Assembly: GCA_964016885.1 (NCBI GenBank)
Contig: OZ024744.1
Coordinates: 131,626,001-131,690,000, forward strand
Source: Eledone cirrhosa
Taxonomy: Eukaryota
Length of the DNA stretch: 64,000 nt
Direction: 5' to 3'
The position numbers and the translations under genes were made by a program. Under the pieces are notes generated by a model. It searched no databases and had not been told where the DNA came from. It saw nothing but the letters and a program-made list of their open reading frames with translations. Shown here in pieces: positions 31,962 through 62,162 of the stretch; positions within the stretch are counted from its first letter, which is position 1, and every line of letters begins with the position of its first letter.

Positions 31962-32322
31962 AACCCCAACTTCACTCAACCCCACCTTAACTCAACCCCA
32001 ACTTAACTTAACCCCAACTTCACTCAACCCCAACTTAACTCAACCCCAACTGAACTTAACCCCAACTTAACTTAACCCTAACTTAACTTAACCCCGACTT
32101 AACTTAACTTCGACTTAACTTAACCCCAACTTAACTTAACCCCAACTTAACTTAACCCCAACTTAACTTAACCACAAATTAAGTTAACCCCAACTTAAAT
32201 TAACCCCAACTTAAATTAACCCCAACTTAACTTAACCCCAACTTAACTTACCCCCAACTTAACTTAACCCCAACTTGACTTAACCCAAACTTAACTTAAC
32301 CCCAACTTAACTTAACCCCAAA
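31962..32322 (-). repeat. Inverted island 8 (361 bp, short type)
   Basis: Same junctions; 64 bp (4 monomers) shorter than island 7; has ccacaaattaagttaacc, lacks ctcacaccc. Confidence 0.96.
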
Positions 32323-36233: not shown

Positions 36234-36658
36234 AACCCCAACTTCACTCAACCCCACCTTAACTCAACCCCAACTGAACTTAACCCCAACTTCACTCAAC
36301 CCCAACTTAACTTAACCCCAACTTCACTCAACCCCAACTTAACTCAACCCCAACTTAACTTAACCCCAACTTAACTTAACCCTAACTTAACTTAACCCCG
36401 ACTTAACTTAACTTCGACTTAACTTAACCCCAACTTAACTTAACCCCAACTTAACTTAACCCCAACTTAACTTAACCACAAATTAACTTAACCCAAACTT
36501 AAATTAACCCCAACTTAAATTAACCCCAACTTAACTTAACCCCAACTTAACTTAACCCCAACTTAACTCACACCCAACTTAACTTACCCCCAACTTAACT
36601 TAACCCCAACTTGACTTAACCCCAACTTAACTTAACCCCAACTTAACTTAACCCCAAA
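36234..36658 (-). repeat. Inverted island 9 (425 bp, long type)
   Basis: As island 7; 1-bp deletion just upstream of the entry (gttaattgggg). Confidence 0.96.
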
Positions 36659-37823: not shown

Positions 37824-38184
37824 AACCCCAACTTCACTCAACCCCACCTTAACTCAACCCCAACTTAACTTAACCCCAACTTCACTCAACCCCAACTTAA
37901 CTCAACCCCAACTGAACTTAACCCCAACTTAACTTAACCCTAACTTAACTTAACCCCGACTTAACTTAACTTCGACTTAACTTAACCCCAACTTAACTTA
38001 ACCCCAACTTAACTTAACCCCAACTTAACTTAACCACAAATTAAGTTAACCCCAACTTAAATTAACCCCAACTTAAATTAACCCCAACTTAACTTAACCC
38101 CAACTTAACTTACCCCCAACTTAACTTAACCCCAACTTGACTTAACCCAAACTTAACTTAACCACAACTTAACTTAACCCCAAA
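37824..38184 (-). repeat. Inverted island 10 (361 bp, short type)
   Basis: As island 8. Confidence 0.96.
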
Positions 38185-41100: not shown

Positions 41101-42096
41101 GGTTAAGTTGGCGTTAAGTTAAGTGGTGGTTATGTTAAGTTGGGGTTAAGTTAAGTTGGGGGTAAGTTAAGTTGGGGGTAAGTTAAGTTGGGGTTAAGTT
41201 AAGTTAGGGTTAAGTTAAGTTGGGGTTGAGTTAAGTTGGGGTTAAGTTAAGTTGGGGTTATGTTAAGTTGGGGTTAAGTTAAGTTGCGGTTAAGTTAAGC
41301 TGGGGTTAAGTTAAGTTGGGGTTAAGTTAAATTGGGGTTAAGTTAAGTTGGGGTTGAGTTAAGTTGGGGTTAAGTTAAGTTGGGGTTATGTTAAGTTGGG
41401 GTTAAGTTAAGTTGGGGTTAATTTAAATTGGGGTTAAGTTAACTTTGTGGTTAAGTTAAGTTGGGGCTAAATTAAGTTGGGGCTAAGTTAAGTTGGGGCT
41501 AAGTTAAGTTGGGGTTCAGTTAAGTTGGGGTTAAGTTAAGTTTGGGTTAAGTTGGGGTTAAATTAAGTTGGGGTTAAGTTAAGTTGGGGTTTAGTTAAGT
41601 TGGGGTTAAGTTAAGTTGGGGTTAATTTAAGTTGGGGTTAAGTTAAGTTGGGGTTAAGTTAAGTGGTGGTTATGTTAAGTTGGGGTTAAGTTAAGTTGGG
41701 GTTAATTTAAATTGGGGTTAAGTTAACTTTGTGGTTAAGTTAAGTTGGGGTTCAGTTAAGTTGGGGTTAAGTTAAGTTGGGGTTCAGTTAAGTTGCGGTC
41801 AAGTTAAGCTGGGGTTAAGTTAAGTTGGGGTTAAGTTAAGTTGGTTAGTTAAGTTGCGTTTAAGTTAAGTTGGGGTTAATTTAAGTTGGGTTTAAGTTAA
41901 GTTGGCGTTAAGTTAAGTTGGGGTTAAGTTAAGTTGGGGTTAAGTTAATTTGGGGTTCAGTTAAGTTGGGGTTAAGTCAAGTTGGGGTTAAGTTGGGGTT
42001 AAATTAATTTAGGGTTAAGTTAAGTTGGGGTTAAGTTAAGTTGGGGTTAAGTTAAGTTGGGGTTAAGTTAATTTGTGGTTAAGTTAAGTTGGGGTT

Positions 42097-42521
42097 AACC
42101 CCAACTTCACTCAACCCCACCTTAACTCAACCCCAACTGAACTTAACCCCAACTTCACTCAACCCCAACTTAACTTAACCCCAACTTCACTCAACCCCAA
42201 CTTAACTCAACCCCAACTTAACTTAACCCCAACTTAACTTAACCCTAACTTAACTTAACCCCGACTTAACTTAACTTCGACTTAACTTAACCCCAACTTA
42301 ACTTAACCCCAACTTAACTTAACCCCAACTTAACTTAACCACAAATTAACTTAACCCAAACTTAAATTAACCCCAACTTAAATTAACCCCAACTTAACTT
42401 AACCCCAACTTAACTTAACCCCAACTTAACTCACACCCAACTTAACTTACCCCCAACTTAACTTAACCCCAACTTGACTTAACCCCAACTTAACTTAACC
42501 CCAACTTAACTTAACCCCAAA
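42097..42521 (-). repeat. Inverted island 11 (425 bp, long type)
   Basis: As island 7. Confidence 0.96.
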
Positions 42522-43686
42522 TTCGGGGTTAAGTTAAGTTGGGGTTAAGTTAAGTTAGGCTTAACTTAAGTTGGGGTTAAGTTTAGTTGGTGTTAAGTTA
42601 AGTTGGGGTTAATTTAAGTTGGGGTTGAGTTAAGTTGGGGTTAAGTTAAGTTGGGTTTATATTAAGTTGGGGTTAAGTTAAGTTGAGGTTCAGTTAAGTT
42701 GCGGTTAAGTTAAGTTGGGGTTAAGTTAAGTTGGGGTTAAGTTAAGTTGGGGTTAAGTTAAGTTGGTGTTAAGTTAAGTTGGGGCTGAGTTAAGTTGGGG
42801 CTGAGTTAAGTTGGGGTTAAGTTAAGTTGGGGTTGAGTTAAGTTGGGGTTAAGTTAAGTTGGGTTTAAGTTAAGTTGGGGTTAAGTTAAGTTGGGGTTAA
42901 GTTAAGTTGGGGTTTAGTTAAGTTGGGGTTCAGTTAAGTTGGGGTTAAGTTAAGTTGGGGTTAAGTTAAGTTGGGGTTAAGTTAAGTTGGGGTTAAGTTA
43001 AGGTAGGGTTAAGTTAAGTTGGGGTTGAGTTAAGTTGGGGTTAAGTTAAGTTGGGGTTATGTTAAGTTGGGGTTAAGTTAAGTTGCGGTTAAGTTAAGTT
43101 GGGGTTAAGTTAAGTTGGGGTTAAGTTAAATTGGGGTTGAGTTAAATTGGGGTTAAGTTAAGTTGGGGTTAAGTTGGGGTTAAGTTAAGTGGTGGTTATG
43201 TTAAGTTGGGGTTAAGTTAAGTTGGGGTTAATTTAAATTGGGGTTAAGTTAACTTTGTGGTTAAGTTAAGTTGGGGTTAAGTTAAGTTGGGGTTGAGTTA
43301 AGTTGGGGTTCAGTTAAGTTGCGGTTAAGTTAAGTTGCGGTTAAGTTAAGTTGGGGTTAAGTTAAGTTGGGGTTAAGTTAAGTTGGGGTCAAGTTAAGCT
43401 GGGGTTAAGTTAAGTTGGGGTTAAGTTAAGTTGGTTAGTTAAGTTGAGTTTAAGTTAAGTTGGGGTTAATTTAAGTTGGGTTTAAGTTAAGTTGGGGTTA
43501 AGTTAAGTTGGGGTTAAGCTAAGTTGGGGTTAAGTTAATTTGGGGTTCAGTTAAGTTGGGGTTAAGTCAAGTTGGGGTTAAGTTGTGGTTAAATTAATTT
43601 GGGGTTAAGTTAAGTTGGGGTTAAGTTAAGTTGGGGTTAAGTTAAGTTGGGGTTAAGTTAATTTGTGGTTAAGTTAAGTTGGGGTT

Positions 43687-44079
43687 AACCCCAACTTCAC
43701 TCAACCCCACCTTAACTCAACCCCAACTTAACTTAACCCCAACTTCACTCAACCCCAACTTAACTCAACCCCAACTGAACTTAACCCCAACTTAACTTAA
43801 CCCTAACTTAACTTAACCCCGACTTAACTTAACTTCGACTTAACTTAACCCCAACTTAACTTAACCCCAACTTAACTTAACCCCAACTTAACTTAACCAC
43901 AAATTAAGTTAACCCCAACTTAAATTAACCCCAACTTAAATTAACCCCAACTTAACTTAACCCCAACTTAACTTAACCCCAACTTAACTCACACCCAACT
44001 TAACTTACCCCCAACTTAACTTAACCCCAACTTGACTTAACCCAAACTTAACTTAACCCCAACTTAACTTAACCCCAAA
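43687..44079 (-). repeat. Inverted island 12 (393 bp, short type)
   Basis: Short type retaining the ctcacaccc unit (32 bp longer than islands 8 and 10). Confidence 0.96.
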
Positions 44080-47000
44080 TTCGGGGTTAAGTTAAGTTGG
44101 GGTTAAGTTAAGTTAGGCTTAACTTAAGTTGGGGTTAAGTTAAGTTGGGGGTAAGTTAAGTTCTGGGTAAGTTAAGTTGGGGTTAAGTTGGGGTTAATTT
44201 AAGTTAGGGTTAAGTTAAGTTGGGGTTAAGTTAAGTTGGGGTTAAATTAAGTTGGGGTTAAGTTTACTTGGTGTTAAGTTAAGTTGGGGTTTATTTAAGT
44301 TGGGGTCAACTTAAATTGGGGTTAAGTTAAGTTGGGGTTAAGTTAAGTTGGGGTTAAGTTAAGTTGGGGTTAAGTTAAGTTGGTGTTAAGTTAAGTTGGG
44401 GCTTAGTTAAGTTGGGGCTGAGTTAAGTTGGGGCTGAGTTAAGTTGGGGTTAAGTTAAGTTGGGGTTGAGTTAAGTTGGGGTTAAGTTAAGTTGGGGTTA
44501 ATTTAAGTTGGGGTTGAGTTAAGTTGGGGTTAAGTTAAGTTGGGTTTATATTAAGTTGGGGTTAAGTTAAGTTGGGGTTAAGTTAAGTTGGGGTTCAGTT
44601 AAGTTGCGGTTAAGTTAAGTTGGGGTTAAGTTAAGTTGGGATTAAATTAAGTTGGGGTTAAGTTAAGTTGGGGTTAAGTTAAGTTGGGGTTAAGTTAAGT
44701 TGGTGTTAAGTTAAGTTGGGGCTGAGTTAAGTTGGGGCTGAGTTAAGTTGGGGTTAAGTTAAGTTGGGGTTGAGTTAAGTTGGGGTTCAGTTAAGTTGGG
44801 GTTAAGTTAAGCTGGGGTTAAGTTAAGTTGGGGTTAAGTTAAGTTGGGGTTTAATTAAGTTGGGGTTCAGTTAAGTTGGGGTTAAGTAAAGTTTGGGTTA
44901 AGTTGGGGTTAAATTAATTTGGGGTTAAGTTAAGTTGGGGTTTAGTTTAGTTGGGGTTAAGTTAAGTTGGGGTTAATTTAAGTTGGGCTTAAGTTAAGTT
45001 GCGGGTAATTTAAGTTGGGGTTAAGTTAAGTTGGGGTTAAGTTAAGTTGGGGTTAAGTTAAGTTGGGGTTAAGTTAAGTTGGGGTTAAGTTAAGTTGGGT
45101 TAAGTTAAGTTGGGGGTAAGTTAAGTTGGGGGTAAGTTAAGTTGGGGTTAAGTTAAGTTAGGGTTAAGTTAAGTTGGGGTTGAGTTAAGTTGGGGTTAAG
45201 TTAAGTTGGAGTTATGTTAAGTTGGGGTTAAGTTAAGTTGCGGTTAAGTTAAGTTGTGGTTAAGTTAAGTTGGGGTTAAGTTATATTGGGGTTAAGTTAA
45301 GTTGGGGTTGAGTTAAGTTGGGGTTAAGTTAAGTTGGGGTTATGTTAAGTTGGGGTTAAGTTAAGTTGCGGTTAAGTTAAGTTGGGGTTAAGTTGGCGTT
45401 AAGTTAAGTGGTGGTTATGTTAAGTTGGGGTTAAGTTAAGTTGGGGGTAAGTTAAGTTGGGGGTAAGTTAAGTTGGGGTTAAGTTAAGTTAGGGTTAAGT
45501 TAAGTTGGGGTTGAGTTAAGTTGGGGTTAAGTTAAGTTGGGGTTATGTTAAGTTGGGGTTAAGTTAAGTTGCGGTTAAGTTAAGTTGGGGTTAAGTTAAG
45601 TTGGGGTTAAGTTAAATTGGGGTTAAGTTAAGTTGGGGTTGAGTTAAGTTGGGGTTAAGTTAAGTTGGGGTTATGTTAAGTTGGGGTTAAGTTGGCGTTA
45701 ACTTAAGTGGTGGTTATGTTAAGTTGGGGTTAAGTTAAGTTGGGGTTAATTTAAATTGGGGTTAAGTTAACTTTGTGGTTAAGTTAAGTTGGGGCTAAAT
45801 TAAGTTGGGGCTAAGTTAAGTTGGGGCTAAGTTAAGTTGGGGTTCAGTTAAGTTGGGGTTAAGTTAAGTTTGGGTTAAGTTGGGGTTAAATTAAGTTGGG
45901 GTTAAGTTAAGTTGGGGTTTAGTTAAGTTGGGGTTAAGTTAAGTTGGGGTTAATTTAAGTTGGGGTTAAGTTAAGTTGGGGTTAAGTTAAGTGGTGGTTA
46001 TGTTAAGTTGGGGTTAAGTTAAGTTGGGGTTAATTTAAATTGGGGTTAAGTTAACTTTGTGGTTAAGTTAAGTTGGGGTTCAGTTAAGTTGGGGTTAAGT
46101 TAAGTTGGGGTTCAGTTAAGTTGCGGTCAAGTTAAGCTGGGGTTAAGTTAAGTTGGGGTTAAGTTAAGTTGGTTAGTTAAGTTGAGTTTAAGTTAAGTTG
46201 GGGTTAAGTTAAGTTGGGGTTCAGTTAAGTTGCGGTTAAGTTAAGTTGGGGTTAAGTTAAGTTGGGATTAAGTTAAGTTGGGGTTAAGTTAAGTTGGGGT
46301 TAAGTTAAGTTGGTGTTAAGTTAAGTTGGGGCTGAGTTAAGTTGGGGCTGAGTTAAGTTGGGGTTAAGTTAAGTTGGGGTTGAGTTAAGTTGGGGTTCAG
46401 TTAAGTTGGGGTTAAGTTAAGTTGGGGTTAAGTTAAGTTGGGGTTAAGTTAAGTTGGGGTTTAATTAAGTTGGGGTTCAGTTAAGTTGGGGTTAAGTAAA
46501 GTTTGGGTTAAGTTGGGGTTAAATTAATTTGGGGTTAAGTTAAGTTGGGGTTTAGTTTAGTTGGGGTTAAGTTAAGTTGGGGTTAATTTAAGTTGGGCTT
46601 AAGTTAAGTTGCGGGTAATTTAAGTTGGGGTTAAGTTAAGTTGGGGTTAAGTTAAGTTGGGGTTAAGTTAAGTTGGGGTTAAGTTAAGTTGGGGTTAAGT
46701 TAAGTTGGGTTAAGTTAAGTTGGGGGTAAGTTAAGTTGGGGGTAAGTTAAGTTGGGGTTAAGTTAAGTTAGGGTTAAGTTAAGTTGGGGTTGAGTTAAGT
46801 TGGGGTTAAGTTAAGTTGGAGTTATGTTAAGTTGGGGTTAAGTTAAGTTGCGGTTAAGTTAAGTTGTGGTTAAGTTAAGTTGGGGTTAAGTTATATTGGG
46901 GTTAAGTTAAGTTGGGGTTGAGTTAAGTTGGGGTTAAGTTAAGTTGGGGTTATGTTAAGTTGGGGTTAAGTTAAGTTGCGGTTAAGTTAAGTTGGGGTTA

Positions 47001-47991
47001 AGTTGGCGTTAAGTTAAGTGGTGGTTATGTTAAGTTGGGGTTAAGTTAAGTTGGGGGTAAGTTAAGTTGGGGGTAAGTTAAGTTGGGGTTAAGTTAAGTT
47101 AGGGTTAAGTTAAGTTGGGGTTGAGTTAAGTTGGGGTTAAGTTAAGTTGGGGTTATGTTAAGTTGGGGTTAAGTTAAGTTGCGGTTAAGTTAAGCTGGGG
47201 TTAAGTTAAGTTGGGGTTAAGTTAAATTGGGGTTAAGTTAAGTTGGGGTTGAGTTAAGTTGGGGTTAAGTTAAGTTGGGGTTATGTTAAGTTGGGGTTAA
47301 GTTAAGTTGGGGTTAATTTAAATTGGGGTTAAGTTAACTTTGTGGTTAAGTTAAGTTGGGGCTAAATTAAGTTGGGGCTAAGTTAAGTTGGGGCTAAGTT
47401 AAGTTGGGGTTCAGTTAAGTTGGGGTTAAGTTAAGTTTGGGTTAAGTTGGGGTTAAATTAAGTTGGGGTTAAGTTAAGTTGGGGTTTAGTTAAGTTGGGG
47501 TTAAGTTAAGTTGGGGTTAATTTAAGTTGGGGTTAAGTTAAGTTGGGGTTAAGTTAAGTGGTGGTTATGTTAAGTTGGGGTTAAGTTAAGTTGGGGTTAA
47601 TTTAAATTGGGGTTAAGTTAACTTTGTGGTTAAGTTAAGTTGGGGTTCAGTTAAGTTGGGGTTAAGTTAAGTTGGGGTTCAGTTAAGTTGCGGTCAAGTT
47701 AAGCTGGGGTTAAGTTAAGTTGGGGTTAAGTTAAGTTGGTTAGTTAAGTTGCGTTTAAGTTAAGTTGGGGTTAATTTAAGTTGGGTTTAAGTTAAGTTGG
47801 CGTTAAGTTAAGTTGGGGTTAAGTTAAGTTGGGGTTAAGTTAATTTGGGGTTCAGTTAAGTTGGGGTTAAGTCAAGTTGGGGTTAAGTTGGGGTTAAATT
47901 AATTTAGGGTTAAGTTAAGTTGGGGTTAAGTTAAGTTGGGGTTAAGTTAAGTTGGGGTTAAGTTAATTTGTGGTTAAGTTAAGTTGGGGTT

Positions 47992-48416
47992 AACCCCAAC
48001 TTCACTCAACCCCACCTTAACTCAACCCCAACTGAACTTAACCCCAACTTCACTCAACCCCAACTTAACTTAACCCCAACTTCACTCAACCCCAACTTAA
48101 CTCAACCCCAACTTAACTTAACCCCAACTTAACTTAACCCTAACTTAACTTAACCCCGACTTAACTTAACTTCGACTTAACTTAACCCCAACTTAACTTA
48201 ACCCCAACTTAACTTAACCCCAACTTAACTTAACCACAAATTAACTTAACCCAAACTTAAATTAACCCCAACTTAAATTAACCCCAACTTAACTTAACCC
48301 CAACTTAACTTAACCCCAACTTAACTCACACCCAACTTAACTTACCCCCAACTTAACTTAACCCCAACTTGACTTAACCCCAACTTAACTTAACCCCAAC
48401 TTAACTTAACCCCAAA
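47992..48416 (-). repeat. Inverted island 13 (425 bp, long type)
   Basis: As island 7. Confidence 0.96.
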
Positions 48417-49725
48417 TTCGGGGTTAAGTTAAGTTGGGGTTAAGTTAAGTTAGGCTTAACTTAAGTTGGGGTTAAGTTAAGTTAGGGTTAAGTTAAGTTG
48501 GGTTTAAGTTAAGTTGGGGTTAAATTAAGTTGGGGTTAAGTTAAGTTGGGGGTAAATTAAGTTGGGGGCAAGTTAAGTTGGGGTTCAGTTAAGTTGGGGT
48601 TAAATTAAGTTGGGGTTAAGTTTAGTTGGTGTTAAGTTAAGTTGGGGTTAATTTAAGTTGGGGTTGAGTTAAGTTGGGGTTAAGTTAAGTTGGGTTTATA
48701 TTAAGTTGGGGTTAAGTTAAGTTGAGGTTCAGTTAAGTTGCGGTTAAGTTAAGTTGGGGTTAAGTTAAGTTGGGGTTAAGTTAAGTTGGGGTTAAGTTAA
48801 GTTGGTGTTAAGTTAAGTTGGGGCTGAGTTAAGTTGGGGCTGAGTTAAGTTGGGGTTAAGTTAAGTTGGGGTTGAGTTAAGTTGGGGTTAAGTTAAGTTG
48901 GGTTTAAGTTAAGTTGGGGTTAAGTTAAGTTGGGGTTAAGTTAAGTTGGGGTTTAGTTAAGTTGGGGTTCAGTTAAGTTGGGGTTAAGTTAAGTTGGGGT
49001 TAAGTTAAGTTGGGGTTAAGTTAAGTTGGGGTTAAGTTAAGGTAGGGTTAAGTTAAGTTGGGGTTGAGTTAAGTTGGGGTTAAGTTAAGTTGGGGTTATG
49101 TTAAGTTGGGGTTAAGTTAAGTTGCGGTTAAGTTAAGTTGGGGTTAAGTTAAGTTGGGGTTAAGTTAAATTGGGGTTGAGTTAAATTGGGGTTAAGTTAA
49201 GTTGGGGTTAAGTTGGGGTTAAGTTAAGTGGTGGTTATGTTAAGTTGGGGTTAAGTTAAGTTGGGGTTAATTTAAATTGGGGTTAAGTTAACTTTGTGGT
49301 TAAGTTAAGTTGGGGTTAAGTTAAGTTGGGGTTGAGTTAAGTTGGGGTTCAGTTAAGTTGCGGTTAAGTTAAGTTGCGGTTAAGTTAAGTTGGGGTTAAG
49401 TTAAGTTGGGGTTAAGTTAAGTTGGGGTCAAGTTAAGCTGGGGTTAAGTTAAGTTGGGGTTAAGTTAAGTTGGTTAGTTAAGTTGAGTTTAAGTTAAGTT
49501 GGGGTTAATTTAAGTTGGGTTTAAGTTAAGTTGGGGTTAAGTTAAGTTGGGGTTAAGCTAAGTTGGGGTTAAGTTAATTTGGGGTTCAGTTAAGTTGGGG
49601 TTAAGTCAAGTTGGGGTTAAGTTGTGGTTAAATTAATTTGGGGTTAAGTTAAGTTGGGGTTAAGTTAAGTTGGGGTTAAGTTAAGTTGGGGTTAAGTTAA
49701 TTTGTGGTTAAGTTAAGTTGGGGTT

Positions 49726-50118
49726 AACCCCAACTTCACTCAACCCCACCTTAACTCAACCCCAACTTAACTTAACCCCAACTTCACTCAACCCCAACTT
49801 AACTCAACCCCAACTGAACTTAACCCCAACTTAACTTAACCCTAACTTAACTTAACCCCGACTTAACTTAACTTCGACTTAACTTAACCCCAACTTAACT
49901 TAACCCCAACTTAACTTAACCCCAACTTAACTTAACCACAAATTAAGTTAACCCCAACTTAAATTAACCCCAACTTAAATTAACCCCAACTTAACTTAAC
50001 CCCAACTTAACTTAACCCCAACTTAACTCACACCCAACTTAACTTACCCCCAACTTAACTTAACCCCAACTTGACTTAACCCAAACTTAACTTAACCCCA
50101 ACTTAACTTAACCCCAAA
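49726..50118 (-). repeat. Inverted island 14 (393 bp, short type)
   Basis: As island 12. Confidence 0.96.
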
Positions 50119-53100
50119 TTCGGGGTTAAGTTAAGTTGGGGTTAAGTTAAGTTAGGCTTAACTTAAGTTGGGGTTAAGTTAAGTTGGGGGTAAGTTAAGT
50201 TCTGGGTAAGTTAAGTTGGGGTTAAGTTGGGGTTAATTTAAGTTAGGGTTAAGTTAAGTTGGGGTTGAGTTAAGTTGGGGTTAAGTTAAGTTGGGGTTAA
50301 GTTAAGTTGGGGTCAAGTTAAGTTGGGGTTAAAATTAAGTTGGGGTTAAGTCAAGTTGGGGTTAAGTTAAGTTGGGGTTAATTTAGTTGGGGTTAAGTTA
50401 AGTTGGGGCTAAGTTAATTTGGGGCTAAGTTAAGTTGGGGCTAAGTTAAGTTGGGGTTAAGTTAAGTTGGGGTTAAGTTAAGTTGGGGTTAATTTAAATT
50501 GGGGTTAAGTTAACTTTGTGGTTAAGTTAAGTTGGGGTTAAGTTAAGTTGGGGCTAAGTTAAGTTGGGGTTAAGTTAAGTTGGGGTTAAGTTAAGTTGGG
50601 GTTGAGTTAAGTTGGGGTAGAGTGAAGTTGGGGTTAAGTTAAGTTGGGGTTAAGTTAAGTTGGCGTTAAGTTAAGTTGGGGTTGAGTTAAGTTGGGGTTG
50701 AGTTAATTTAGGGTTAAGTTAAGTTGGGGTTAAGTTAAGTTGGGTTTAAGTTAAGTTGGGGTTAAATTAAGTTGGGGTTAAATTAAGTTGGGGTTAAGTT
50801 AAGTTGGGGGTAAGTTAAGTTGGGGTTAAGTTAAGTTGGGGTTCAGTTAAGTTAGGGTTAAGTTAAGTTTGGGTTAAGTTGGGGTTAAATTAAGTTGGGG
50901 TTAAGTTAAGTTGGGGTTTAGTTAAGTTGGAGTTAAGTTAAGTTGGGGTTAATTTAAGTTGGTGTTAAGTTAAGTGGTGGTTATGTTAAGTTGGGGTTAA
51001 GTTAAGTTGGGGTTAATTTAAATTGGGGTTAAGTTAACTTTGTGGTTAAGTTAAGTTGGGGTTAAGTTAAGTTGGGGTTAAGTTAAGTTGGGGTTAAGTT
51101 AAGTCGAAGTTAAGTTAAGTCGGGGTTAAGTTAAGTTGGGGTTGAGTGAAGTTGGGGTTAAGTTAAGTTGGGGTTAATTTAAGTTGGGGTTAAGTTAAGT
51201 CGGGGTTAAGTTAAGTTGGGGTTGAGTTAAGTTGGGGTTAATTTAAGTTGGGGCTAAGTTAATTTGGGTTTAAGTTAAGTTGGGGTTAAATTAAGTTGGG
51301 GTTAAGTTAAGTTGGGGGTAAGTTAAGTTGGGGGCAAGTTAAGTTGGGGTTCAGTTAAGTTGGGGTTAAATTAAGTTGGGGTTAAGTTTAGTTGGTGTTA
51401 AGTTAAGTTGGGGTTTATTTAAGTTGGGGTTAATTAAGTTGGGGTTAAGTTAAGTTGGGGTTAAGTTAAGTTGGGGTTAATTTAAGTTGGGGTTGAGTTA
51501 AGTTGGGGTTAAGTTAAGTTGGGTTTATATTAAGTTGGGGTTAAGTTAAGTTGGGGTTAAGTTAAGTTGGGGTTCAGTTAAGTTGCGGTTAAGTTAAGTT
51601 GGGGTTAAGTTAAGTTGGGGTTAAGTTAAGTTGGGGTTAAGTTAAGTTGGGGTTAAGTTAAGTTGGTGTTAAGTTAAGTTGGGGCTGAGTTAAGTTGGGG
51701 CTGAGTTAAGTTGGGGTTAAGTTAAGTTGGGGTTGAGTTAAGTTGGGGTTAAGTTAAGTTGGGGTTAAGTTAAGTTGGGGTTCAGTTAAGTTGGGGTTAA
51801 GTTAAGTTTGGGTTAAGTTGGGGTTAAATTAATTTGGGGTTAAGTTAAGTTGGGGTTTAGTTTAGTTGGGGTTAATTTAAGTTGGGGTTAAGTTAAGTTG
51901 CGGGTAATTTAAGTTGGGGTTAAGTTAAGTTGGAGTTAAGTTAAGTTGGGGTTAAGTTAAGTTGGGGTTAAGCTAAGTTGGGGGTAAGTTAAGTTGGGGG
52001 TAAGTTAAGTTGGGGTTAAGTTAAGTTGGGGTTAAGTTAAGTTAGGGTTAAGTTAAGTTGGGGTTGAGTTAAGTTGAGGTTAAGTTAAGTTGGGGTTATG
52101 TTAAGTTGGGGTTAAGTTAAGTTGCGGTTAAGTTAAGTTGGGGTTAAGTTAAGTTGGGGTTAAGTTAAATTGGGGTTAAGTTAAGTTGGGGTTGAGTTAA
52201 GTTGGGGTTAAGTTAAGTTGGGGTTATGTTAAGTTGGGGTTAATTTAAGTTGCGGTTAAGTTAAGTTGGGGTTAAGTTGGGGTTAAGTTAAGTGGTGGTT
52301 ATGTTAAGTTGGGGTTAAGTTAAGTTGGGTTTAATTTAAATTGGGGTTAAGTTAACTTTGTGGTTAAGTTAAGTTGGGGCTAAATTAAGTTGGGGCTAAG
52401 TTAAGTTGGGGCTAAGTTAAGTTGGGGTTCAGTTAAGTTGGGGTTAAGTTAAGTTTGGGTTAAGTTGGGGTTAAATTAAGTTGGGGTTAAGTTAAGTTGG
52501 GGTTTAGTTAAGTTGGGGTTAAGTTAAGTTGGGGTTAATTTAAGTTGGGGTTAAGTTAAGTGGTGGTTATGTTAAGTTGGGGTTAAGTTAAGTTGGGGTT
52601 AATTTAAATTGGGGTTAAGTTAACTTTGTGGTTAAGTTAAGCTGGGGTTAAGTTAAGTTGGGGTTAAGTTAAGTTGGTTAGTTAAGTTGAGTTTAAGTTA
52701 AGTTGGGGTTAATTTAAGTTGGGTTTAAGTTAAGTTGGGGTTAAGTTAAGTTGGGGTTAAGTTAAGTTGGGGTTCAGTTAAGTTGGGGTTAAGTTAAGTT
52801 GGGGTTAAGATGGGGTTAAATTAAGTTGGGGTTAAGTTAAGTTGGGGTTAAGTTAAGTTGGGGTTAAGTTAAGTCGGGGTTAAGTTAAGTCGGGGTTATG
52901 TTAAGTTAGGGTTAAGTTAAGTTTGAGTTAAGTTAAGTTGGGGTGAGTTAAGTTGGGGTTGAGTTAAATTGGGGTGGAGTTAAGTTGGGGTTGAGTTAAG
53001 TTGGTGTTGAGTTAAGTTGGGGTTAAGTTAAGTTGCAGTTAAGTTAAGTTGAGGTTAAGTTAAGTAGGGGTTAAGTTAAGTTGGGGTTAAGTTAAGTTGG

Positions 53101-55812
53101 GGCTAAGTTAATTTGGGGCTAAGTTAAGTTGGGGCTAAGTTAAGTTGGGGTTCAGTTAAGTTGGGGTTAAGTTAAGTTTGGGTTAAGTTGGGGTTAAATT
53201 AAGTTGGGGTTAAGTTAAGTTGGGGTTTAGTTAAGTTGGGGTTAAGTTAAGTTGGGGTTAATTTAAGTTGGGGTTAAGTTAAGTTGGTGTTAAGTTAAGT
53301 GGTGGTTATGTTAAGTTGGGGTTAAGTTAAGTTGGGGTTAATTTAAATTGGGGTTAAGTTAACTTTGTGGTTAAGTTAAGTTGGGGTTAAGTTAAGTTGG
53401 GGTTAAGTTAAGTTGGGGTTGAGTTAAGTTGGGGTTGAGTGAAGTTGGGGTTAAGTTAAGTTGGGGTTAATTTATGTTGGGGTTAAGTTAAGTCGGGGTT
53501 AAGTTAAGTTGGGGTTGAGGTAAGTTGGGGTTAATTTAAGTTGGGGCTAAGTTAATTTGTGGTTAAGTTAAGTTGGGGTTAAGTTAAGTTGGGGTTAAGT
53601 TAAGTTGGGGTTGAGTTAAGTTGGGGTTGAGTTAATTTAGGGTTAAGTTAAGTTGGGGTTAAGTTAAGTTGGGTTTAAGTTAAGTTGGGGTTAAATTAAG
53701 TTGGGGTTAAGTTAAGTTGGGGGTAAGTTAAGTTGGGGGCAAGTTAAGTTGGGGTTAAGTTAAGTTGGGGTTAAATTAAGTTGGGGTTAAGTTTACTTGG
53801 TGTTAAGTTAAGTTGGGGTTTATTTAAGTTGGGGTCAACTTAAGTTGGGGTTAAGTTAAGTTGGGGTTAAGTTAAGTTGGTGTTAAGTTAAGTTGGGGCT
53901 AAGTTAAGTTGGGGCTGAGTTAAGTTGGGGCTGAGTTAAGTTGGGGTTAAGTTAAGTTGGGGTTAATTTAAGTTGGGGTTAATTTAAGTTGGGGTTGAGT
54001 TAAGTTGGGGTTAAGTTAAGTTGGGTTTATATTAAGTTGGGGTTAAGTTAAGTTGGGGTTAAGTTAAGTTGGGGTTCAGGTAAGTTGCGGTTAAGTTAAG
54101 TTGGGGTTAAGTTAAGTTGGGATTAAGTTAAGTTGGGGTTAAGTTAAGTTGGGGTTAAGTTAAGTTGGGGTTAAGTTAAGTTGGTGTTAAGTTAAGTTGG
54201 GGCTGAGTTAAGTTGGGGCTGAGTTAAGTTGGGGTTAAGTTAAGTTGGGGTTGAGTTAAGTTGGGGTTCAGTTAAGTTGGGGTTAAGTTAAGTTGGGGTT
54301 AAGTTAAGTTGGGGTTAAGTTAAGTTGGGGTTTAATTAAGTTGGGGTTAAGTAAAGTTTGGGTTAAGTTGGGGTTAAATTAATTTGGGGTTAAGTTAAGT
54401 TGGGGTTTAGTTTAGTTGGGGTTAAGTTAAGTTGGGGTTAATTTAAGTTGGGCTTAAGTTAAGTTGCGGGTAATTTAAGTTGGGGTTAAGTTAAGTTGGG
54501 GTTAAGTTAAGTTGGGGTTAAGTTAAGTTGGGGTTAAGTTAAGTTGGGGTTAAGTTAAGTTGGGTTAAGTTAAGTTGGGGGTAAGTTAAGTTGGGGGTAA
54601 GTTAAGTTGGGGTTAAGTTAAGTTAGGGTTAAGTTAAGTTGGAGTTGAGTTAAGTTGGGGTTAAGTTAAGTTGGAGTTATGTTAAGTTGGGGTTAAGTTA
54701 AGTTGCGGTTAAGTTAAGTTGTGGTTAAGTTAAGTTGGGGTTAAGTTATATTGGGGTTAAGTTAAGTTGGGGTTGATTTAAGTTGGGGTTAAGTTAAGTT
54801 GGGGTTATGTTAAGTTGGGGTTAAGTTAAGTTGCGGTTAAGTTAAGTTGGGGTTAAGTTGGCGTTAAGTTAAGTGGTGGTTATGTTAAGTTGGGGTTAAG
54901 TTAAGTTGGGGGTAAGTTAAGTTGGGGGTAAGTTAAGTTGGGGTTAAGTTAAGTTAGGGTTAAGTTAAGTTGGGGTTGAGTTAAGTTGGGGTTAAGTTAA
55001 GTTGGGGTTATGTTAAGTTGGGGTTAAGTTAAGTTGCGGTTAAGTTAAGTTGGGGTTAAGTTAAGTTGGGGTTAAGTTAAATTGGGGTTAAGTTAAGTTG
55101 GGGTTGAGTTAAGTTGGGGTTAAGTTAAGTTGGGGTTATGTTAAGTTGGGGTTAAGTTGGCGTTAAGTTAAGTGGTGGTTATGTTAAGTTGGGGTTAAGT
55201 TAAGTTGGGGTTAATTTAAATTGGGGTTAAGTTAACTTTGTGGTTAAGTTAAGTTGGGGCTAAATTAAGTTGGGGCTAAGTTAAGTTGGGGCTAAGTTAA
55301 GTTGGGGTTCAGTTAAGTTGGGGTTAAGTTAAGTTTGGGTTAAGTTGGGGTTAAATTAAGTTGGGGTTAAGTTAAGTTGGGGTTTAGTTAAGTTGGGGTT
55401 AAGTTAAGTTGGGGTTAATTTAAGTTGGGGTTAAGTTAAGTTGGGGTTAAGTTAAGTGGTGGTTATGTTAAGTTGGGGTTAAGTTAAGTTGGGGTTAATT
55501 TAAATTGGGGTTAAGTTAACTTTGTGGTTAAGTTAAGTTGGGGTTTAGTTAAGTTGGGGTTAAGTTAAGTTGGGGTTAAGTTAAGTTGGGGTTCAGTTAA
55601 GTTGCGGTCAAGTTAAGATGGGGTTAAGTTAAGTTGGGGTTAAGTTAAGTTGGGGTTAAGTTAATTTGGGGTTCAGTTAAGTTGGGGTTAAGTCAAGTTG
55701 GGGTTAAGTTGGGGTTAAATTAATTTAGGGTTAAGTTAAGTTGGGGTTAAGTTAAGTTGGGGTTAAGTTAAGTTGGGGTTAAGTTAATTTGTGGTTAAGT
55801 TAAGTTGGGGTT

Positions 55813-56237
55813 AACCCCAACTTCACTCAACCCCACCTTAACTCAACCCCAACTGAACTTAACCCCAACTTCACTCAACCCCAACTTAACTTAACCCCAA
55901 CTTCACTCAACCCCAACTTAACTCAACCCCAACTTAACTTAACCCCAACTTAACTTAACCCTAACTTAACTTAACCCCGACTTAACTTAACTTCGACTTA
56001 ACTTAACCCCAACTTAACTTAACCCCAACTTAACTTAACCCCAACTTAACTTAACCACAAATTAACTTAACCCAAACTTAAATTAACCCCAACTTAAATT
56101 AACCCCAACTTAACTTAACCCCAACTTAACTTAACCCCAACTTAACTCACACCCAACTTAACTTACCCCCAACTTAACTTAACCCCAACTTGACTTAACC
56201 CCAACTTAACTTAACCCCAACTTAACTTAAACCCAAA
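55813..56237 (-). repeat. Inverted island 15 (425 bp, long type)
   Basis: As island 7; exit reads acccaaattcgggg (one substitution). Confidence 0.96.
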
Positions 56238-57546
56238 TTCGGGGTTAAGTTAAGTTGGGGTTAAGTTAAGTTAGGCTTAACTTAAGTTGGGGTTAAATTA
56301 AGTTAGGGTTAAGTTAAGTTGGGTTTAAGTTAAGTTGGGGTTAAATTAAGTTGGGGTTAAGTTAAGTTGGGGGTAAATTAAGTTGGGGGCAAGTTAAGTT
56401 GGGGTTCAGTTAAGTTGGGGTTAAATTAAGTTGGGGTTAAGTTTAGTTGGTGTTAAGTTAAGTTGGGGTTAATTTAAGTTGGGGTTGAGTTAAGTTGGGG
56501 TTAAGTTAAGTTGGGTTTATATTAAGTTGGGGTTAAGTTAAGTTGGGGTTCAGTTAAGTTGCGGTTAAGTTAAGTTGGGGTTAAGTTAAGTTGGGGTTAA
56601 GTTAAGTTGGGGTTAAGTTAAGTTGGTGTTAAGTTAAGTTGGGGCTGAGTTAAGTTGGCGCTGAGTTAAGTTGGGGTTAAGTTAAGTTGGGGTTGAGTTA
56701 AGTTGGGGTTAAGTTAAGTTGGGTTTAAGTTAAGTTGGGGTTAAGTTAAGTTGGGGTTAAGTTAAGTTGGGGTTTAGTTAAGTTGGGGTTCAGTTAAGTT
56801 GGGGTTAAGTTAAGTTGGGGTTAAGTTAAGTTGGGGTTAAGTTAAGTTGGGGTTAAGTTAAGGTAGGGTTAAGTTAAGTTGGGGTTGAGTTAAGTTGGGG
56901 TTAAGTTAAGTTGGGGTTATGTTAAGTTGGGGTTAAGTTAAGTTGCGGTTAAGTTAAGTTGGGGTTAAGTTAAGTTGGGGTTAAGTTAAATTGGGGTTGA
57001 GTTAAATTGGGGTTAAGTTAAGTTGGGGTTAAGTTGGGGTTAAGTTAAGTGGTGGTTATGTTAAGTTGGGGTTAAGTTAAGTTGGGGTTAATTTAAATTG
57101 GGGTTAAGTTAACTTTGTGGTTAAGTTAAGTTGGGGTTAAGTTAAGTTGGGGTTGAGTTAAGTTGGGGTTCAGTTAAGTTGCGGTTAAGTTAAGTTGCGG
57201 TTAAGTTAAGTTGGGGTTAAGTTAAGTTGGGGTTAAGTTAAGTTGGGGTCAAGTTAAGCTGGGGTTAAGTTAAGTTGGGGTTAAGTTAAGTTGGTTAGTT
57301 AAGTTGAGTTTAAGTTAAGTTGGGGTTAATTTAAGTTGGGTTTAAGTTAAGTTGGGGTTAAGTTAAGTTGGGGTTAAGCTAAGTTGGGGTTAAGTTAATT
57401 TGGGGTTCAGTTAAGTTGGGGTTAAGTCAAGTTGGGGTTAAGTTGTGGTTAAATTAATTTGGGGTTAAGTTAAGTTGGGGTTAAGTTAAGTTGGGGTTAA
57501 GTTAAGTTGGGGTTAAGTTAATTTGTGGTTAAGTTAAGTTGGGGTT

Positions 57547-57875
57547 AACCCCAACTTCACTCAACCCCACCTTAACTCAACCCCAACTTAACTTAACCCC
57601 AACTTCACTCAACCCCAACTTAACTCAACCCCAACTGAACTTAACCCCAACTTAACTTAACCCTAACTTAACTTAACCCCGACTTAACTTAACCACAAAT
57701 TAAGTTAACCCCAACTTAAATTAACCCCAACTTAAATTAACCCCAACTTAACTTAACCCCAACTTAACTTAACCCCAACTTAACTCACACCCAACTTAAC
57801 TTACCCCCAACTTAACTTAACCCCAACTTGACTTAACCCAAACTTAACTTAACCCCAACTTAACTTAACCCCAAA
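57547..57875 (-). repeat. Inverted island 16 (329 bp, shortest type)
   Basis: 393-bp type minus 64 bp including the cttcgac unit (reads ccccgacttaacttaaccacaaat). Confidence 0.96.
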
Positions 57876-60099
57876 TTCGGGGTTAAGTTAAGTTGGGGTT
57901 AAGTTAAGTTAGGCTTAACTTAAGTTGGGGTTAAGTTAAGTTGGGGGTAAGTTAAGTTCTGGGTAAGTTAAGTTGGGGTTAAGTTGGGGTTAATTTAAGT
58001 TAGGGTTAAGTTAAGTTGGGGTTGAGTTAAGTTGGGGTTAAGTTAAGTTGGGGTTAAGTTAAGTTGGGGTCAAGTTAAGTTGGGGTTAAAATTAAGTTGG
58101 GGTTAAGTCAAGTTGGGGTTAAGTTAAGTTGGGGTTAATTTAGTTGGGGTTAAGTTAAGTTGGGGCTAAGTTAATTTGGGGCTAAGTTAAGTTGGGGCTA
58201 AGTTAAGTTGGGGTTAAGTTAAGTTGGGGTTAAGTTAAGTTGGGGTTAATTTAAATTGGGGTTAAGTTAAGTTGGGGTTAAGTTAAGTTGGGGCTAAGTT
58301 AAGTTGGGGTTAAGTTAAGTTGGGGTTAAGTTAAGTTGGGGTTGAGTTAAGTTGGGGTTGAGTGAAGTTGGGGTTAAGTTAAGTTGGCGTTAAGTTAAGT
58401 TGGGGTTGAGTTAAGTTGGGGTTGAGTTAATTTAGGGTTAAGTTAAGTTGGGGTTAAGTTAAGTTGGGTTTAAGTTAAGTTGGGGTTAAATTAAGTTGGG
58501 GTTAAATTAAGTTGGGGTTAAGTTAAGTTGGGGGTAAGTTAAGTTGGGGTTAAGTTAAGTTGGGGTTCAGTTAAGTTAGGGTTAAGTTAAGTTTGGGTTA
58601 AGTTGGGGTTAAATTAAGTTGGGGTTAAGTTAAGTTGGGGTTTAGTTAAGTTGGAGTTAAGTTAAGTTGGGGTTAATTTAAGTTGGGGTTAAGTTAAGTT
58701 GGTGTTAAGTTAAGTGGTGGTTATGTTAAGTTGGGGTTAAGTTAAGTTGGGGTTAATTTAAATTGGGGTTAAGTTAACTTTGTGGTTAAGTTAAGTTGGG
58801 GTTAAGTTAAGTTGGGGTTAAGTTAAGTTGGGGTTGAGTTAAGTTGGGGTTGAGTGAAGTTGGGGTTAAGTTAAGTTGGGGTTAATTTAAGTTGGGGTTA
58901 AGTTAAGTCGGGGTTAAGTTAAGTTGGGGTTGAGTTAAGTTGGTGTTAATTTAAGTTGGGGCTAAGTTAATTTGTGGTTAAGTTAAGTTGGGGTTAAGTT
59001 AAGTTGGGGTTAAGTTAAGTTGGGGTTGAGTTAAGTTGGGGTTAAGTTAAGTTGGGGTTATGTTAAGTTGGGGTTAAGTTAAGTTGCGGTTAAGTTAAGT
59101 TGGGGTTAAGTTGGCGTTAAGTTAAGTGGTGGTTATGTTAAGTTGGGGTTAAGTTAAGTTGGGGGTAAGTTAAGTTGGGGGTAAGTTAAGTTGGGGTTAA
59201 GTTAAGTTAGGGTTAAGTTAAGTTGGGGTTGAGTTAAGTTGGGGTTAAGTTAAGTTGGGGTTATGTTAAGTTGGGGTTAAGTTAAGTTGCGGTTAAGTTA
59301 AGCTGGGGTTAAGTTAAGTTGGGGTTAAGTTAAATTGGGGTTAAGTTAAGTTGGGGTTGAGTTAAGTTGGGGTTAAGTTAAGTTGGGGTTATGTTAAGTT
59401 GGGGTTAAGTTAAGTTGGGGTTAATTTAAATTGGGGTTAAGTTAACTTTGTGGTTAAGTTAAGTTGGGGCTAAATTAAGTTGGGGCTAAGTTAAGTTGGG
59501 GCTAAGTTAAGTTGGGGTTCAGTTAAGTTGGGGTTAAGTTAAGTTTGGGTTAAGTTGGGGTTAAATTAAGTTGGGGTTAAGTTAAGTTGGGGTTTAGTTA
59601 AGTTGGGGTTAAGTTAAGTTGGGGTTAATTTAAGTTGGGGTTAAGTTAAGTTGGGGTTAAGTTAAGTGGTGGTTATGTTAAGTTGGGGTTAAGTTAAGTT
59701 GGGGTTAATTTAAATTGGGGTTAAGTTAACTTTGTGGTTAAGTTAAGTTGGGGTTCAGTTAAGTTGGGGTTAAGTTAAGTTGGGGTTCAGTTAAGTTGCG
59801 GTCAAGTTAAGCTGGGGTTAAGTTAAGTTGGGGTTAAGTTAAGTTGGTTAGTTAAGTTGCGTTTAAGTTAAGTTGGGGTTAATTTAAGTTGGGTTTAAGT
59901 TAAGTTGGCGTTAAGTTAAGTTGGGGTTAAGTTAAGTTGGGGTTAAGTTAATTTGGGGTTCAGTTAAGTTGGGGTTAAGTCAAGTTGGGGTTAAGTTGGG
60001 GTTAAATTAATTTAGGGTTAAGTTAAGTTGGGGTTAAGTTAAGTTGGGGTTAAGTTAAGTTGGGGTTAAGTTAATTTGTGGTTAAGTTAAGTTGGGGTT

Positions 60100-60524
60100 A
60101 ACCCCAACTTCACTCAACCCCACCTTAACTCAACCCCAACTGAACTTAACCCCAACTTCACTCAACCCCAACTTAACTTAACCCCAACTTCACTCAACCC
60201 CAACTTAACTCAACCCCAACTTAACTTAACCCCAACTTAACTTAACCCTAACTTAACTTAACCCCGACTTAACTTAACTTCGACTTAACTTAACCCCAAC
60301 TTAACTTAACCCCAACTTAACTTAACCCCAACTTAACTTAACCACAAATTAACTTAACCCAAACTTAAATTAACCCCAACTTAAATTAACCCCAACTTAA
60401 CTTAACCCCAACTTAACTTAACCCCAACTTAACTCACACCCAACTTAACTTACCCCCAACTTAACTTAACCCCAACTTGACTTAACCCCAACTTAACTTA
60501 ACCCCAACTTAACTTAACCCCAAA
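60100..60524 (-). repeat. Inverted island 17 (425 bp, long type)
   Basis: As island 7. Confidence 0.96.
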
Positions 60525-61833
60525 TTCGGGGTTAAGTTAAGTTGGGGTTAAGTTAAGTTAGGCTTAACTTAAGTTGGGGTTAAGTTAAGTTAGGGTTAAG
60601 TTAAGTTGGGTTTAAGTTAAGTTGGGGTTAAATTAAGTTGGGGTTAAGTTAAGTTGGGGGTAAATTAAGTTGGGGGCAAGTTAAGTTGGGGTTCAGTTAA
60701 GTTGGGGTTAAATTAAGTTGGGGTTAAGTTTAGTTGGTGTTAAGTTAAGTTGGGGTTAATTTAAGTTGGGGTTGAGTTAAGTTGGGGTTAAGTTAAGTTG
60801 GGTTTATATTAAGTTGGGGTTAAGTTAAGTTGAGGTTCAGTTAAGTTGCGGTTAAGTTAAGTTGGGGTTAAGTTAAGTTGGGGTTAAGTTAAGTTGGGGT
60901 TAAGTTAAGTTGGTGTTAAGTTAAGTTGGGGCTGAGTTAAGTTGGGGCTGAGTTAAGTTGGGGTTAAGTTAAGTTGGGGTTGAGTTAAGTTGGGGTTAAG
61001 TTAAGTTGGGTTTAAGTTAAGTTGGGGTTAAGTTAAGTTGGGGTTAAGTTAAGTTGGGGTTTAGTTAAGTTGGGGTTCAGTTAAGTTGGGGTTAAGTTAA
61101 GTTGGGGTTAAGTTAAGTTGGGGTTAAGTTAAGTTGGGGTTAAGTTAAGGTAGGGTTAAGTTAAGTTGGGGTTGAGTTAAGTTGGGGTTAAGTTAAGTTG
61201 GGGTTATGTTAAGTTGGGGTTAAGTTAAGTTGCGGTTAAGTTAAGTTGGGGTTAAGTTAAGTTGGGGTTAAGTTAAATTGGGGTTGAGTTAAATTGGGGT
61301 TAAGTTAAGTTGGGGTTAAGTTGGGGTTAAGTTAAGTGGTGGTTATGTTAAGTTGGGGTTAAGTTAAGTTGGGGTTAATTTAAATTGGGGTTAAGTTAAC
61401 TTTGTGGTTAAGTTAAGTTGGGGTTAAGTTAAGTTGGGGTTGAGTTAAGTTGGGGTTCAGTTAAGTTGCGGTTAAGTTAAGTTGCGGTTAAGTTAAGTTG
61501 GGGTTAAGTTAAGTTGGGGTTAAGTTAAGTTGGGGTCAAGTTAAGCTGGGGTTAAGTTAAGTTGGGGTTAAGTTAAGTTGGTTAGTTAAGTTGAGTTTAA
61601 GTTAAGTTGGGGTTAATTTAAGTTGGGTTTAAGTTAAGTTGGGGTTAAGTTAAGTTGGGGTTAAGCTAAGTTGGGGTTAAGTTAATTTGGGGTTCAGTTA
61701 AGTTGGGGTTAAGTCAAGTTGGGGTTAAGTTGTGGTTAAATTAATTTGGGGTTAAGTTAAGTTGGGGTTAAGTTAAGTTGGGGTTAAGTTAAGTTGGGGT
61801 TAAGTTAATTTGTGGTTAAGTTAAGTTGGGGTT

Positions 61834-62162
61834 AACCCCAACTTCACTCAACCCCACCTTAACTCAACCCCAACTTAACTTAACCCCAACTTCACTCAAC
61901 CCCAACTTAACTCAACCCCAACTGAACTTAACCCCAACTTAACTTAACCCTAACTTAACTTAACCCCGACTTAACTTAACCACAAATTAAGTTAACCCCA
62001 ACTTAAATTAACCCCAACTTAAATTAACCCCAACTTAACTTAACCCCAACTTAACTTAACCCCAACTTAACTCACACCCAACTTAACTTACCCCCAACTT
62101 AACTTAACCCCAACTTGACTTAACCCAAACTTAACTTAACCCCAACTTAACTTAACCCCAAA
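61834..62162 (-). repeat. Inverted island 18 (329 bp, shortest type)
   Basis: Same 64-bp deletion as island 16. Confidence 0.96.

What the first reader, a model, noticed from the sequence alone, without database searches (positions are those of the whole stretch)
51035..51150. Island-specific signature found once in forward orientation: probable conversion between inverted and forward repeats
Seen: 51,090-51,125 reads ggggttaagttaagTCGAAGttaagttaagTCGGGG, the exact reverse complement of the island marker ccccgacttaacttaacttcgacttaacttaacccc. As in the island reverse complement, it follows tgtgg plus three consensus units. The homologous forward segments (~58,780-58,860, ~63,080-63,160) lack these two units. 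It is the only forward TCGAAG I found. Inference: the tract was copied from an island by hairpin-mediated template switching or gene conversion, or it is a relic of the pre-inversion allele.
Basis: partly seen in the sequence, partly recalled or inferred. Interest (0 to 1): 0.7.

Follow-up and report, generated by a model that had tools for sequence, protein, structure and literature searches.

The report
Inverted-island patch copied into satellite array
In a 16-base satellite array, one short forward-reading stretch carries a marker otherwise seen only in the array's inverted islands, and it was likely copied across orientation by gene conversion, an ordinary repeat-turnover event that a rare marker happens to make visible.

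Summary
The window is one 16-bp satellite with 18 inverted islands. GTCGAAG occurs 17 times: 16 on the minus strand, one in each of 16 of 18 islands, and once forward at 51,103. Bases 51,039-51,137 (99 bp) match 10 of 18 islands exactly in reverse complement, the longest forward-to-island match in the window. Five homologous forward segments, not two, lack the marker, and flank variants nest the marked copy with two of them, so it is a gain: one unit replaced by three (+32 bp), tract 33-99 bp. A forward-only insertion lies 67 bp from the island-only marker, so the site is a mosaic. Best reading: homology-directed copying from an island (about 0.75 in all), more likely by strand invasion than by hairpin fold-back; the sequence cannot separate the two or name the donor. 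A relic allele needs at least two identical losses (0.05). A same-orientation donor outside the window and an assembly artefact remain untested. Short conversion tracts in satellites and conversion between inverted repeats are known; this is one well-marked case. Interest 0.25.

The parts
51039..51137 (+). Maximal converted tract: 99 bp identical to the reverse complement of 10 of 18 islands
51096..51128 (+). Minimal tract under a one-step model (33 bp): first to last base that differs from the sister copies
   Evidence: 57-bp shared prefix with sister; suffix identity resumes at 51,129
51094..51109 (+). Marker unit M1 (ends TCGAAG; three substitutions from consensus), 1 of 3,575 forward units
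51110..51125 (+). Marker unit M2 (ends TCGGGG), 11 forward copies, 16 in islands
51029..51045 (+). 17-bp TGTGG unit with the forward-only C insertion (63 forward, 0 in islands); left limit of the tract
49728..50119 (-). Nearest inverted island
49844..49942 (-). Nearest candidate donor (1,097 bp from the tract)
48142..48240 (-). Equally matching candidate donor (2.8 kb)
55963..56061 (-). Equally matching candidate donor (about 4.9 kb downstream); seven more at 30,378, 32,080, 36,384, 37,942, 42,247, 43,805, 60,250
58769..58913 (+). Sister forward segment without the marker (model of the pre-event state)
63073..63217 (+). Sister forward segment without the marker
53354..53498 (+). Outgroup forward segment without the marker
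26077..26221 (+). Outgroup forward segment without the marker
21607..21751 (+). Outgroup forward segment without the marker
1..64000 (+). 16-bp satellite array, about 4,037 copies, kilobase-scale higher-order duplications, 18 inverted islands (7,254 bp, 11.3%)

Best explanation
The stretch at 51,039-51,137 is a forward satellite segment carrying an island-only marker that was likely copied in from an inverted island by homology-directed gene conversion, most likely by strand invasion of the island duplex. Shown: the match, the mosaic and the absence of the marker in five homologues. Inferred steps: a free 3' end in the TGTGG-plus-three-consensus run paired with the 57-bp identical run of an island (which, being inverted, offers its other strand as template), copied M1, M2 and 3-12 more bases, and re-annealed to its own molecule two units out of register, giving +32 bp. 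A full 80-bp conversion followed by a 48-bp slippage deletion gives the same sequence and cannot be told apart. No function is implied; it is a footprint of array turnover.
For: 99-bp exact reverse-complement match to 10 of 18 islands, longest of all forward positions; next best are 85 bp, at four of the five marker-free homologues, so this segment family was already the best exact island match. Marker absent from 5 of 5 homologues. All 7 sites that separate the two homologue groups put the marked copy with 58,769/63,073, on both sides of the tract (for 2 of the 7 only 63,073 could be compared), and the states it shares with them upstream are the derived ones by comparison with other sub-repeats. 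The forward-only C insertion (63 forward units, 0 in islands) sits 67 bp from the island-only AA; none of the other 62 is followed by M1. The marker lies in the island's own register after TGTGG plus three consensus units, a context held by 21 of 3,575 units, 21 of 1,328 positions after one consensus unit and 21 of 123 after three. Tract size 33-99 bp and donors 1-5 kb away are like the satellite conversions seen in Arabidopsis mutation-accumulation lines (mean 58.5 bp, median 16 units; 10.1101/2025.06.02.657473, passages).
Against: One event only: no second multi-marker island-to-forward tract among 55 clusters of private unit words, and no forward-to-island multi-marker tract among 18 islands. 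The donor cannot be named (10 identical candidates). Only 64 kb of the array was seen, so a same-orientation donor elsewhere is not excluded. The register argument is weak if entry needs three consensus units (21 of 123). No reads were available. Strand invasion over fold-back is a judgement, not a test result.
Confidence: 0.55

Rival explanations
1. Same donor class, hairpin route: a long single strand (resected break or stalled fork) folded back so that the nearest island (49,844-49,942) templated its own downstream 3' end across a 1.1-kb loop.
For: The nearest exact donor is 1,097 bp away; the order of switch points (3-2-1-4 in the four-point notation of PMC7954356, passages) allows intra-strand switching. 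51,039 is the only perfect 57-nt anchor between 47,000 and 53,000. One of three modelled pre-event folds pairs the island with 51,039-51,106 in the right register. Two independent short perfect inverted repeats (10-bp arms, 4-5-nt loops) show that fold-back-type switching likely acts here at short range.
Against: Snap-back at the island junctions predicts tracts near 49,576 or 50,363, not 51,106. The other two modelled folds pair the island elsewhere (50,515, or a different register). The stretch holding that island is identical over 3,602 bp to 59,056-62,657 while the tract's block is more diverged, so today's neighbour island may postdate the tract. Documented short-range switches span tens to hundreds of nucleotides, median copied length 12.
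Confidence: 0.2
2. Ordinary same-orientation conversion from a donor outside the window: an island lying in an oppositely oriented block, or a forward paralogue that kept the marker.
For: The array runs off both ends of the window. Large satellite arrays can hold multi-kilobase inverted sub-arrays (PMC13081366, passages).
Against: No forward donor in 51 kb to the left or 13 kb to the right, whereas exact inverted donors lie at 1-5 kb; satellite conversion donors in Arabidopsis are mostly near.
Confidence: 0.12
3. Assembly or polishing artefact: island-derived reads placed on the most island-like forward segment wrote the marker in.
For: The site belongs to the forward family with the best exact island match; a 99-bp match is within short-read length; single occurrence; no reads seen.
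Against: The four equally matching homologues are unaltered; large duplications in the window show 0-10 mismatches over kilobases with private variants kept apart, which suggests accurate long reads; islands are assembled, so their reads have perfect targets.
Confidence: 0.06
4. Relic of the pre-inversion allele: the forward ancestor had the marker and other forward copies lost it.
For: The segment family is island-like on both sides (57-bp and 85-bp matches); the tract lies in an old single-copy block rich in private changes; the marked copy equals the island minus one 48-bp deletion.
Against: Needs two independent, identical 80-bp losses (sister pair and outgroup trio) plus a non-nested 48-bp loss, against one gain; none of the other 62 C-insertion units has the marker; the forward tandem TCGGGG-TCGGGG-A units at 21,122, 25,591 and 52,864, a possible true paralogue of the island core, carry GG not AA (that homology is weak, reached by 1-10 of 40 shuffles).
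Confidence: 0.05
5. Independent mutation: a forward TCGGGG pair was copied locally and a GG-to-AA change then arose again by chance.
For: Forward TCGGGG tandem exists 1.8 kb downstream at 52,864.
Against: About a dozen private substitutions in the 5.2-kb block (read off) give roughly 0.0008 per specific base change; two specific changes in one of 13 C-bearing units come to about 1e-5, or below 1e-4 as one tandem event (my arithmetic, approximate). The unit is 1 of 3,575 forward.
Confidence: 0.02

Closest known systems
Non-allelic gene conversion in satellite arrays (Arabidopsis CEN178; 10.1101/2025.06.02.657473, abstract, outline and passages seen)
   Same: Cluster of linked variants matching a nearby donor exactly, in monomer register; tract of tens of bases; whole-unit length change.
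   Different: Donor here is in the opposite orientation; the word 'inverted' has 0 occurrences in that main text (supplements not seen). Monomer is 16 bp; event inferred from paralogues, not from pedigrees.
Template switching under the four-point model (Loytynoja and Goldman; Walker et al., PMC7954356, passages seen)
   Same: Reverse-complement templated patch with net length gain; switch order 3-2-1-4 or 1-4-3-2.
   Different: Donor at 1.1 kb or more, outside their +/-100-nt search; 57 bp of prior identity instead of micro-homology; copied length 33-99 nt against a median of 12 (maximum 128).
Arm-to-arm gene conversion in palindromes and conversion between inverted repeats (Y-chromosome palindromes, yeast inverted-repeat assays; recalled, not read here)
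   Same: Non-reciprocal transfer between inverted homologous sequences on one chromosome.
   Different: No defined arm pair: every forward unit is a potential partner, and the tract is not at a mirror position.
Satellite macro-dyad symmetries with conserved inversion sites (Tribolium madens, PMC13081366, passages seen)
   Same: Orientation switches inside a satellite array with near-identical junctions amplified many times (18 of 18 islands share the left junction type and the AAATTCGGGG right junction).
   Different: Inverted parts here are only 328-425 bp and ride inside higher-order duplications; 'conversion' has 0 occurrences in that main text.

Membership tests
Non-allelic gene conversion tract | Several linked variants match an identifiable paralogous donor exactly | tested here: met
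   99-bp exact match incl. four island-type bases, 10 of 18 islands
Non-allelic gene conversion tract | Recipient state is derived, flanks keep recipient-type variants | tested here: met
   5 of 5 homologues lack it; 7 of 7 group-splitting sites nest the copy; C insertion kept
Non-allelic gene conversion tract | Non-reciprocal: donor unchanged, no crossover | tested here: inconclusive
   No island carries the forward allele and the DNA between islands and tract is not inverted, but the actual donor molecule is unknown
Non-allelic gene conversion tract | Prior homology between donor and recipient | tested here: met
   57 bp 5' and 85 bp in a second register
Non-allelic gene conversion tract | Dependence on recombination machinery; direct parent-offspring observation | not testable with these tools
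   No reads, pedigrees or mutants
Short-range template switch (four-point model) | Copied fragment is a reverse complement of existing sequence | tested here: met
Short-range template switch (four-point model) | Template within tens to hundreds of nucleotides | tested here: not met
   Nearest donor 1,097 bp against the range in PMC7954356
Hairpin or cruciform arm-to-arm correction | Recipient at the mirror position of the donor about the symmetry centre | tested here: not met
   Mirror positions 49,576 and 50,363 against 51,106
Hairpin or cruciform arm-to-arm correction | Fold of the pre-event strand favours the donor-recipient register | tested here: inconclusive
   1 of 3 modelled folds
Satellite macro-dyad symmetry (Tribolium type) | Multi-kilobase inverted sub-arrays | tested here: not met
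   Islands are 328-425 bp
Satellite macro-dyad symmetry (Tribolium type) | Conserved inversion junctions | tested here: met
   11-bp-arm palindrome in 17 of 18 left junctions, same right junction in 18 of 18

The most novel reading that the evidence does not exclude
Short inverted islands serve as recurring in-cis fold-back templates in a G-rich satellite: a stalled or broken strand anneals to an island a kilobase away and copies from it, so islands feed variants into the forward array, and their private markers give a direct natural measure of cross-orientation versus same-orientation repair in satellite DNA.
Probability: 0.15. Interest if true: 0.55.

Novelty: new member of a known kind. Interest (0 to 1): 0.25.

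Why it matters
Most conversion inside a satellite is invisible because donors and recipients look alike. Here orientation-specific markers show that sequence likely moves from inverted islands into the forward array, so orientation is no barrier to homogenisation. With the full array and several haplotypes, counting such tracts would give a rate and a distance profile that separate strand invasion from fold-back. As a single tract it is a clean illustration of a known process.

Tried and rejected
Source and prior description: a 32-nt consensus dimer found 0 matches in bacterial and archaeal genomes; five 16-nt rotations found 0 papers; shorter 11-13-nt motifs gave 14 listings whose titles and abstract starts are unrelated to this satellite (none opened). 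No eukaryotic genome collection or reads were on hand, and viral and metagenome contig collections stayed unchecked, so the organism is unknown. Searches for a published cross-orientation conversion tract inside a satellite listed no paper that shows one by title or abstract start; only four papers were opened, so this is not proof of absence, and bioRxiv supplements (donor tables of the Arabidopsis study) were not seen. Unit-level alignment to find the forward ancestor of the island: with the tract left out, best scores (17-18) were reached by 1-10 of 40 shuffles, so no ancestor is established; the null was inflated by the tract itself and was discarded. Folding the present-day strand pairs tract and island in 2 of 3 windows but is circular; duplex energies along 50,125-51,400 did not single out the site. 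MAFFT did not open the unit gap and was not used for boundaries. Clustering of three indels round the tract was considered as one complex event and rejected: the whole 50.6-55.8 kb block is single-copy and rich in private changes. A reciprocal link between the forward gain and the 64-bp loss in islands 57,545/61,832 was rejected: they lie in different copies. Proximity of the nearest island is not evidence, since islands recur every 1.3-7.3 kb.

Full report
Setting. The whole window is one tandem array of a 16-bp unit, about 4,037 copies at 87% match, strongly G-skewed except at regular dips. The dips are 18 inverted islands of 328-425 bp, 7,254 bp or 11.3% of the window. They descend from one inversion: 17 of 18 have the same 11-bp-arm palindrome at the left junction and 18 of 18 the same right junction. 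They were multiplied inside kilobase-scale duplications with 0-10 mismatches. The consensus dimer is absent from bacterial and archaeal genomes and the unit was not found in print; a eukaryotic satellite is my inference, and the organism is unknown.

Observation. GTCGAAG has 17 matches, 16 minus and 1 plus at 51,103. Parsed into units, the site reads: TGTGG unit with a C insertion, three consensus units, M1 (ends TCGAAG), M2 (ends TCGGGG), one consensus unit, then the TTGAGTGAAG unit. M1 is 1 of 3,575 forward units. Two islands (57,545, 61,832) lack the marker through a 64-bp deletion.

Tract limits. The forward strand matches island reverse complements exactly from 51,039 to 51,137, 99 bp, for 10 islands; the six left-hand islands match 20-44 bp because of their own variants. 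On the left the C insertion at 51,038, found in 63 forward units and no island, is kept; on the right the island's A at unit position 13 is not taken. Against the sister copy, identity ends after 57 bp and resumes at 51,129, so a one-step tract spans at least 51,096-51,128 (33 bp). One unit became three, +32 bp.

Gain or relic. Five forward segments share this context and all read three consensus units, TTGAG unit, TTGAGTGAAG unit. They form two groups. All 7 sites that split the groups place the marked copy with 58,769 and 63,073, three upstream and four downstream of the tract (58,769 could not be compared at two). The upstream shared states are derived, as other sub-repeats carry the alternative, so the root is not on the marked copy's branch. 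A relic would need two independent identical 80-bp losses and a separate 48-bp loss; a gain needs one event, or two. None of the other 62 C-insertion units is followed by M1. Independent origin comes to about 1e-5 to 1e-4 by rough arithmetic on the private substitutions.

Homology direction. The marker sits in the island's own register. That context is held by 21 of 3,575 units, 21 of 1,328 after one consensus unit and 21 of 123 after three, so the test is suggestive, not strong. Four of the five marker-free homologues hold the next-longest exact island match (85 bp) in a second register, so the site was island-like on both sides before the event. A variant-weighted alignment did not establish a forward ancestor of the island above shuffled controls (1-10 of 40 shuffles reached the best score).

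Mechanism. Inferred: a 3' end in the consensus run paired with an island, copied M1, M2 and 3-12 more bases, and returned two units out of register through a 9-bp shared stretch of the next unit. A two-sided 80-bp conversion followed by a 48-bp deletion gives the same letters, and unit deletions are common in this block (16 bp at 50,949, 112 bp near 51,265). An invading end can use either orientation of a duplex (established knowledge of synthesis-dependent strand annealing, recalled), so no hairpin is needed. Simple snap-back at island junctions predicts 49,576 or 50,363, not 51,106. Fold-back across a 1.1-kb loop stays possible: 51,039 is the only perfect 57-nt anchor between 47,000 and 53,000, and 1 of 3 modelled pre-event folds takes that register. 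Against it, 46,948-50,613 equals 59,056-62,657 with 0 mismatches in 3,602 aligned bases apart from the 64-bp gap, while the block beyond is more diverged, so the neighbouring island may be younger than the tract. Short fold-back-type footprints do exist: two independent multi-substitution variants create perfect 10-bp-arm inverted repeats with 4- and 5-nt loops, which random double or triple substitutions did in 19 and 55 of 20,000 trials.

Results against the reading. It is one event: no other island-only unit type occurs forward, none among 55 private clusters looks like a second tract, and no island shows a multi-marker forward tract. The donor is one of ten or lies outside the window. Reads were not available.

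Comparison. In Arabidopsis mutation-accumulation lines, clustered centromere mutations trace to donors at a median 16 units with mean tract 58.5 bp (10.1101/2025.06.02.657473; abstract, outline and passages seen); inverted donors are not mentioned in the main text by word search, supplements unseen. Gene conversion and out-of-register re-initiation are standard models for satellites (PMC8997354, passages). Reverse-complement template switches are well described at short range, median 12 nt copied, search space +/-100 nt (PMC7954356, passages); this tract fails the distance criterion. Inverted sub-arrays with conserved junctions are known from Tribolium at multi-kilobase scale (PMC13081366, passages). 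Conversion between palindrome arms and between inverted repeats in yeast is recalled, not read; one search listed one paper, not opened. Searches listed no report of this exact case by title or abstract start.

Verdict. Real in the sequence, best read as a non-allelic conversion tract copied from an inverted island (0.75 for island-templated copying: 0.55 strand invasion, 0.20 fold-back). New member of a known kind; interest 0.25.

Noticed in passing
window 22,075-22,098 (also 26,545, 32,536, 38,398, 44,293; partial at 53,824): A three-substitution unit makes a perfect inverted repeat (10-bp arms, 4-nt loop) that mirrors even the upstream unit's private variant: likely a short-range template switch, one origin, five copies.
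   Followed up: partly
window 1,917-1,941 and after 17 of 18 islands: Two adjacent G-to-C changes 30-45 bp after each island make a perfect inverted repeat (10-bp arms, 5-nt loop), likely a second short template-switch footprint at the island border.
   Followed up: partly
window 57,549-57,876 and 61,836-62,163: These two islands lost 64 bp (three consensus units plus M1), the same four units involved in the forward gain; the deletion is the only difference in a 3.6-kb duplication. Two events are too few to call a hot spot.
   Followed up: partly
window about 50,613: Abrupt change from zero divergence (46,948-50,613 versus 59,056-62,657) to about six differences in the next 1.2 kb: likely a recent recombination junction between a young amplified block and an old single-copy block.
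   Followed up: partly
window 21,122-21,260, 25,591-25,730, 52,864-53,007: The only forward tandem TCGGGG-TCGGGG units, followed by an A-13 unit and G-3 units as in the island core; possible true pre-inversion paralogue, weak by shuffle test.
   Followed up: partly
islands, e.g. window 49,808-49,823 versus 48,026-48,041: The same island-enriched variant (C at unit position 8) sits at different unit positions in the two right-hand island types, and island 1,466 has two private T-13 units: likely conversion within islands.
   Followed up: no
window 1-64,000: Nested higher-order structure with three regimes: about 3.6-5.1 kb steps with one island (1-23 kb), about 5.9 kb steps with two islands (30-50 kb), about 4.3 kb steps with two islands (55.6-64 kb).
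   Followed up: no
window 1-64,000: The unit contains a G4 run on one strand, so islands switch the G-rich strand; G-quadruplex or fork-stalling effects are conceivable but were not tested.
   Followed up: no
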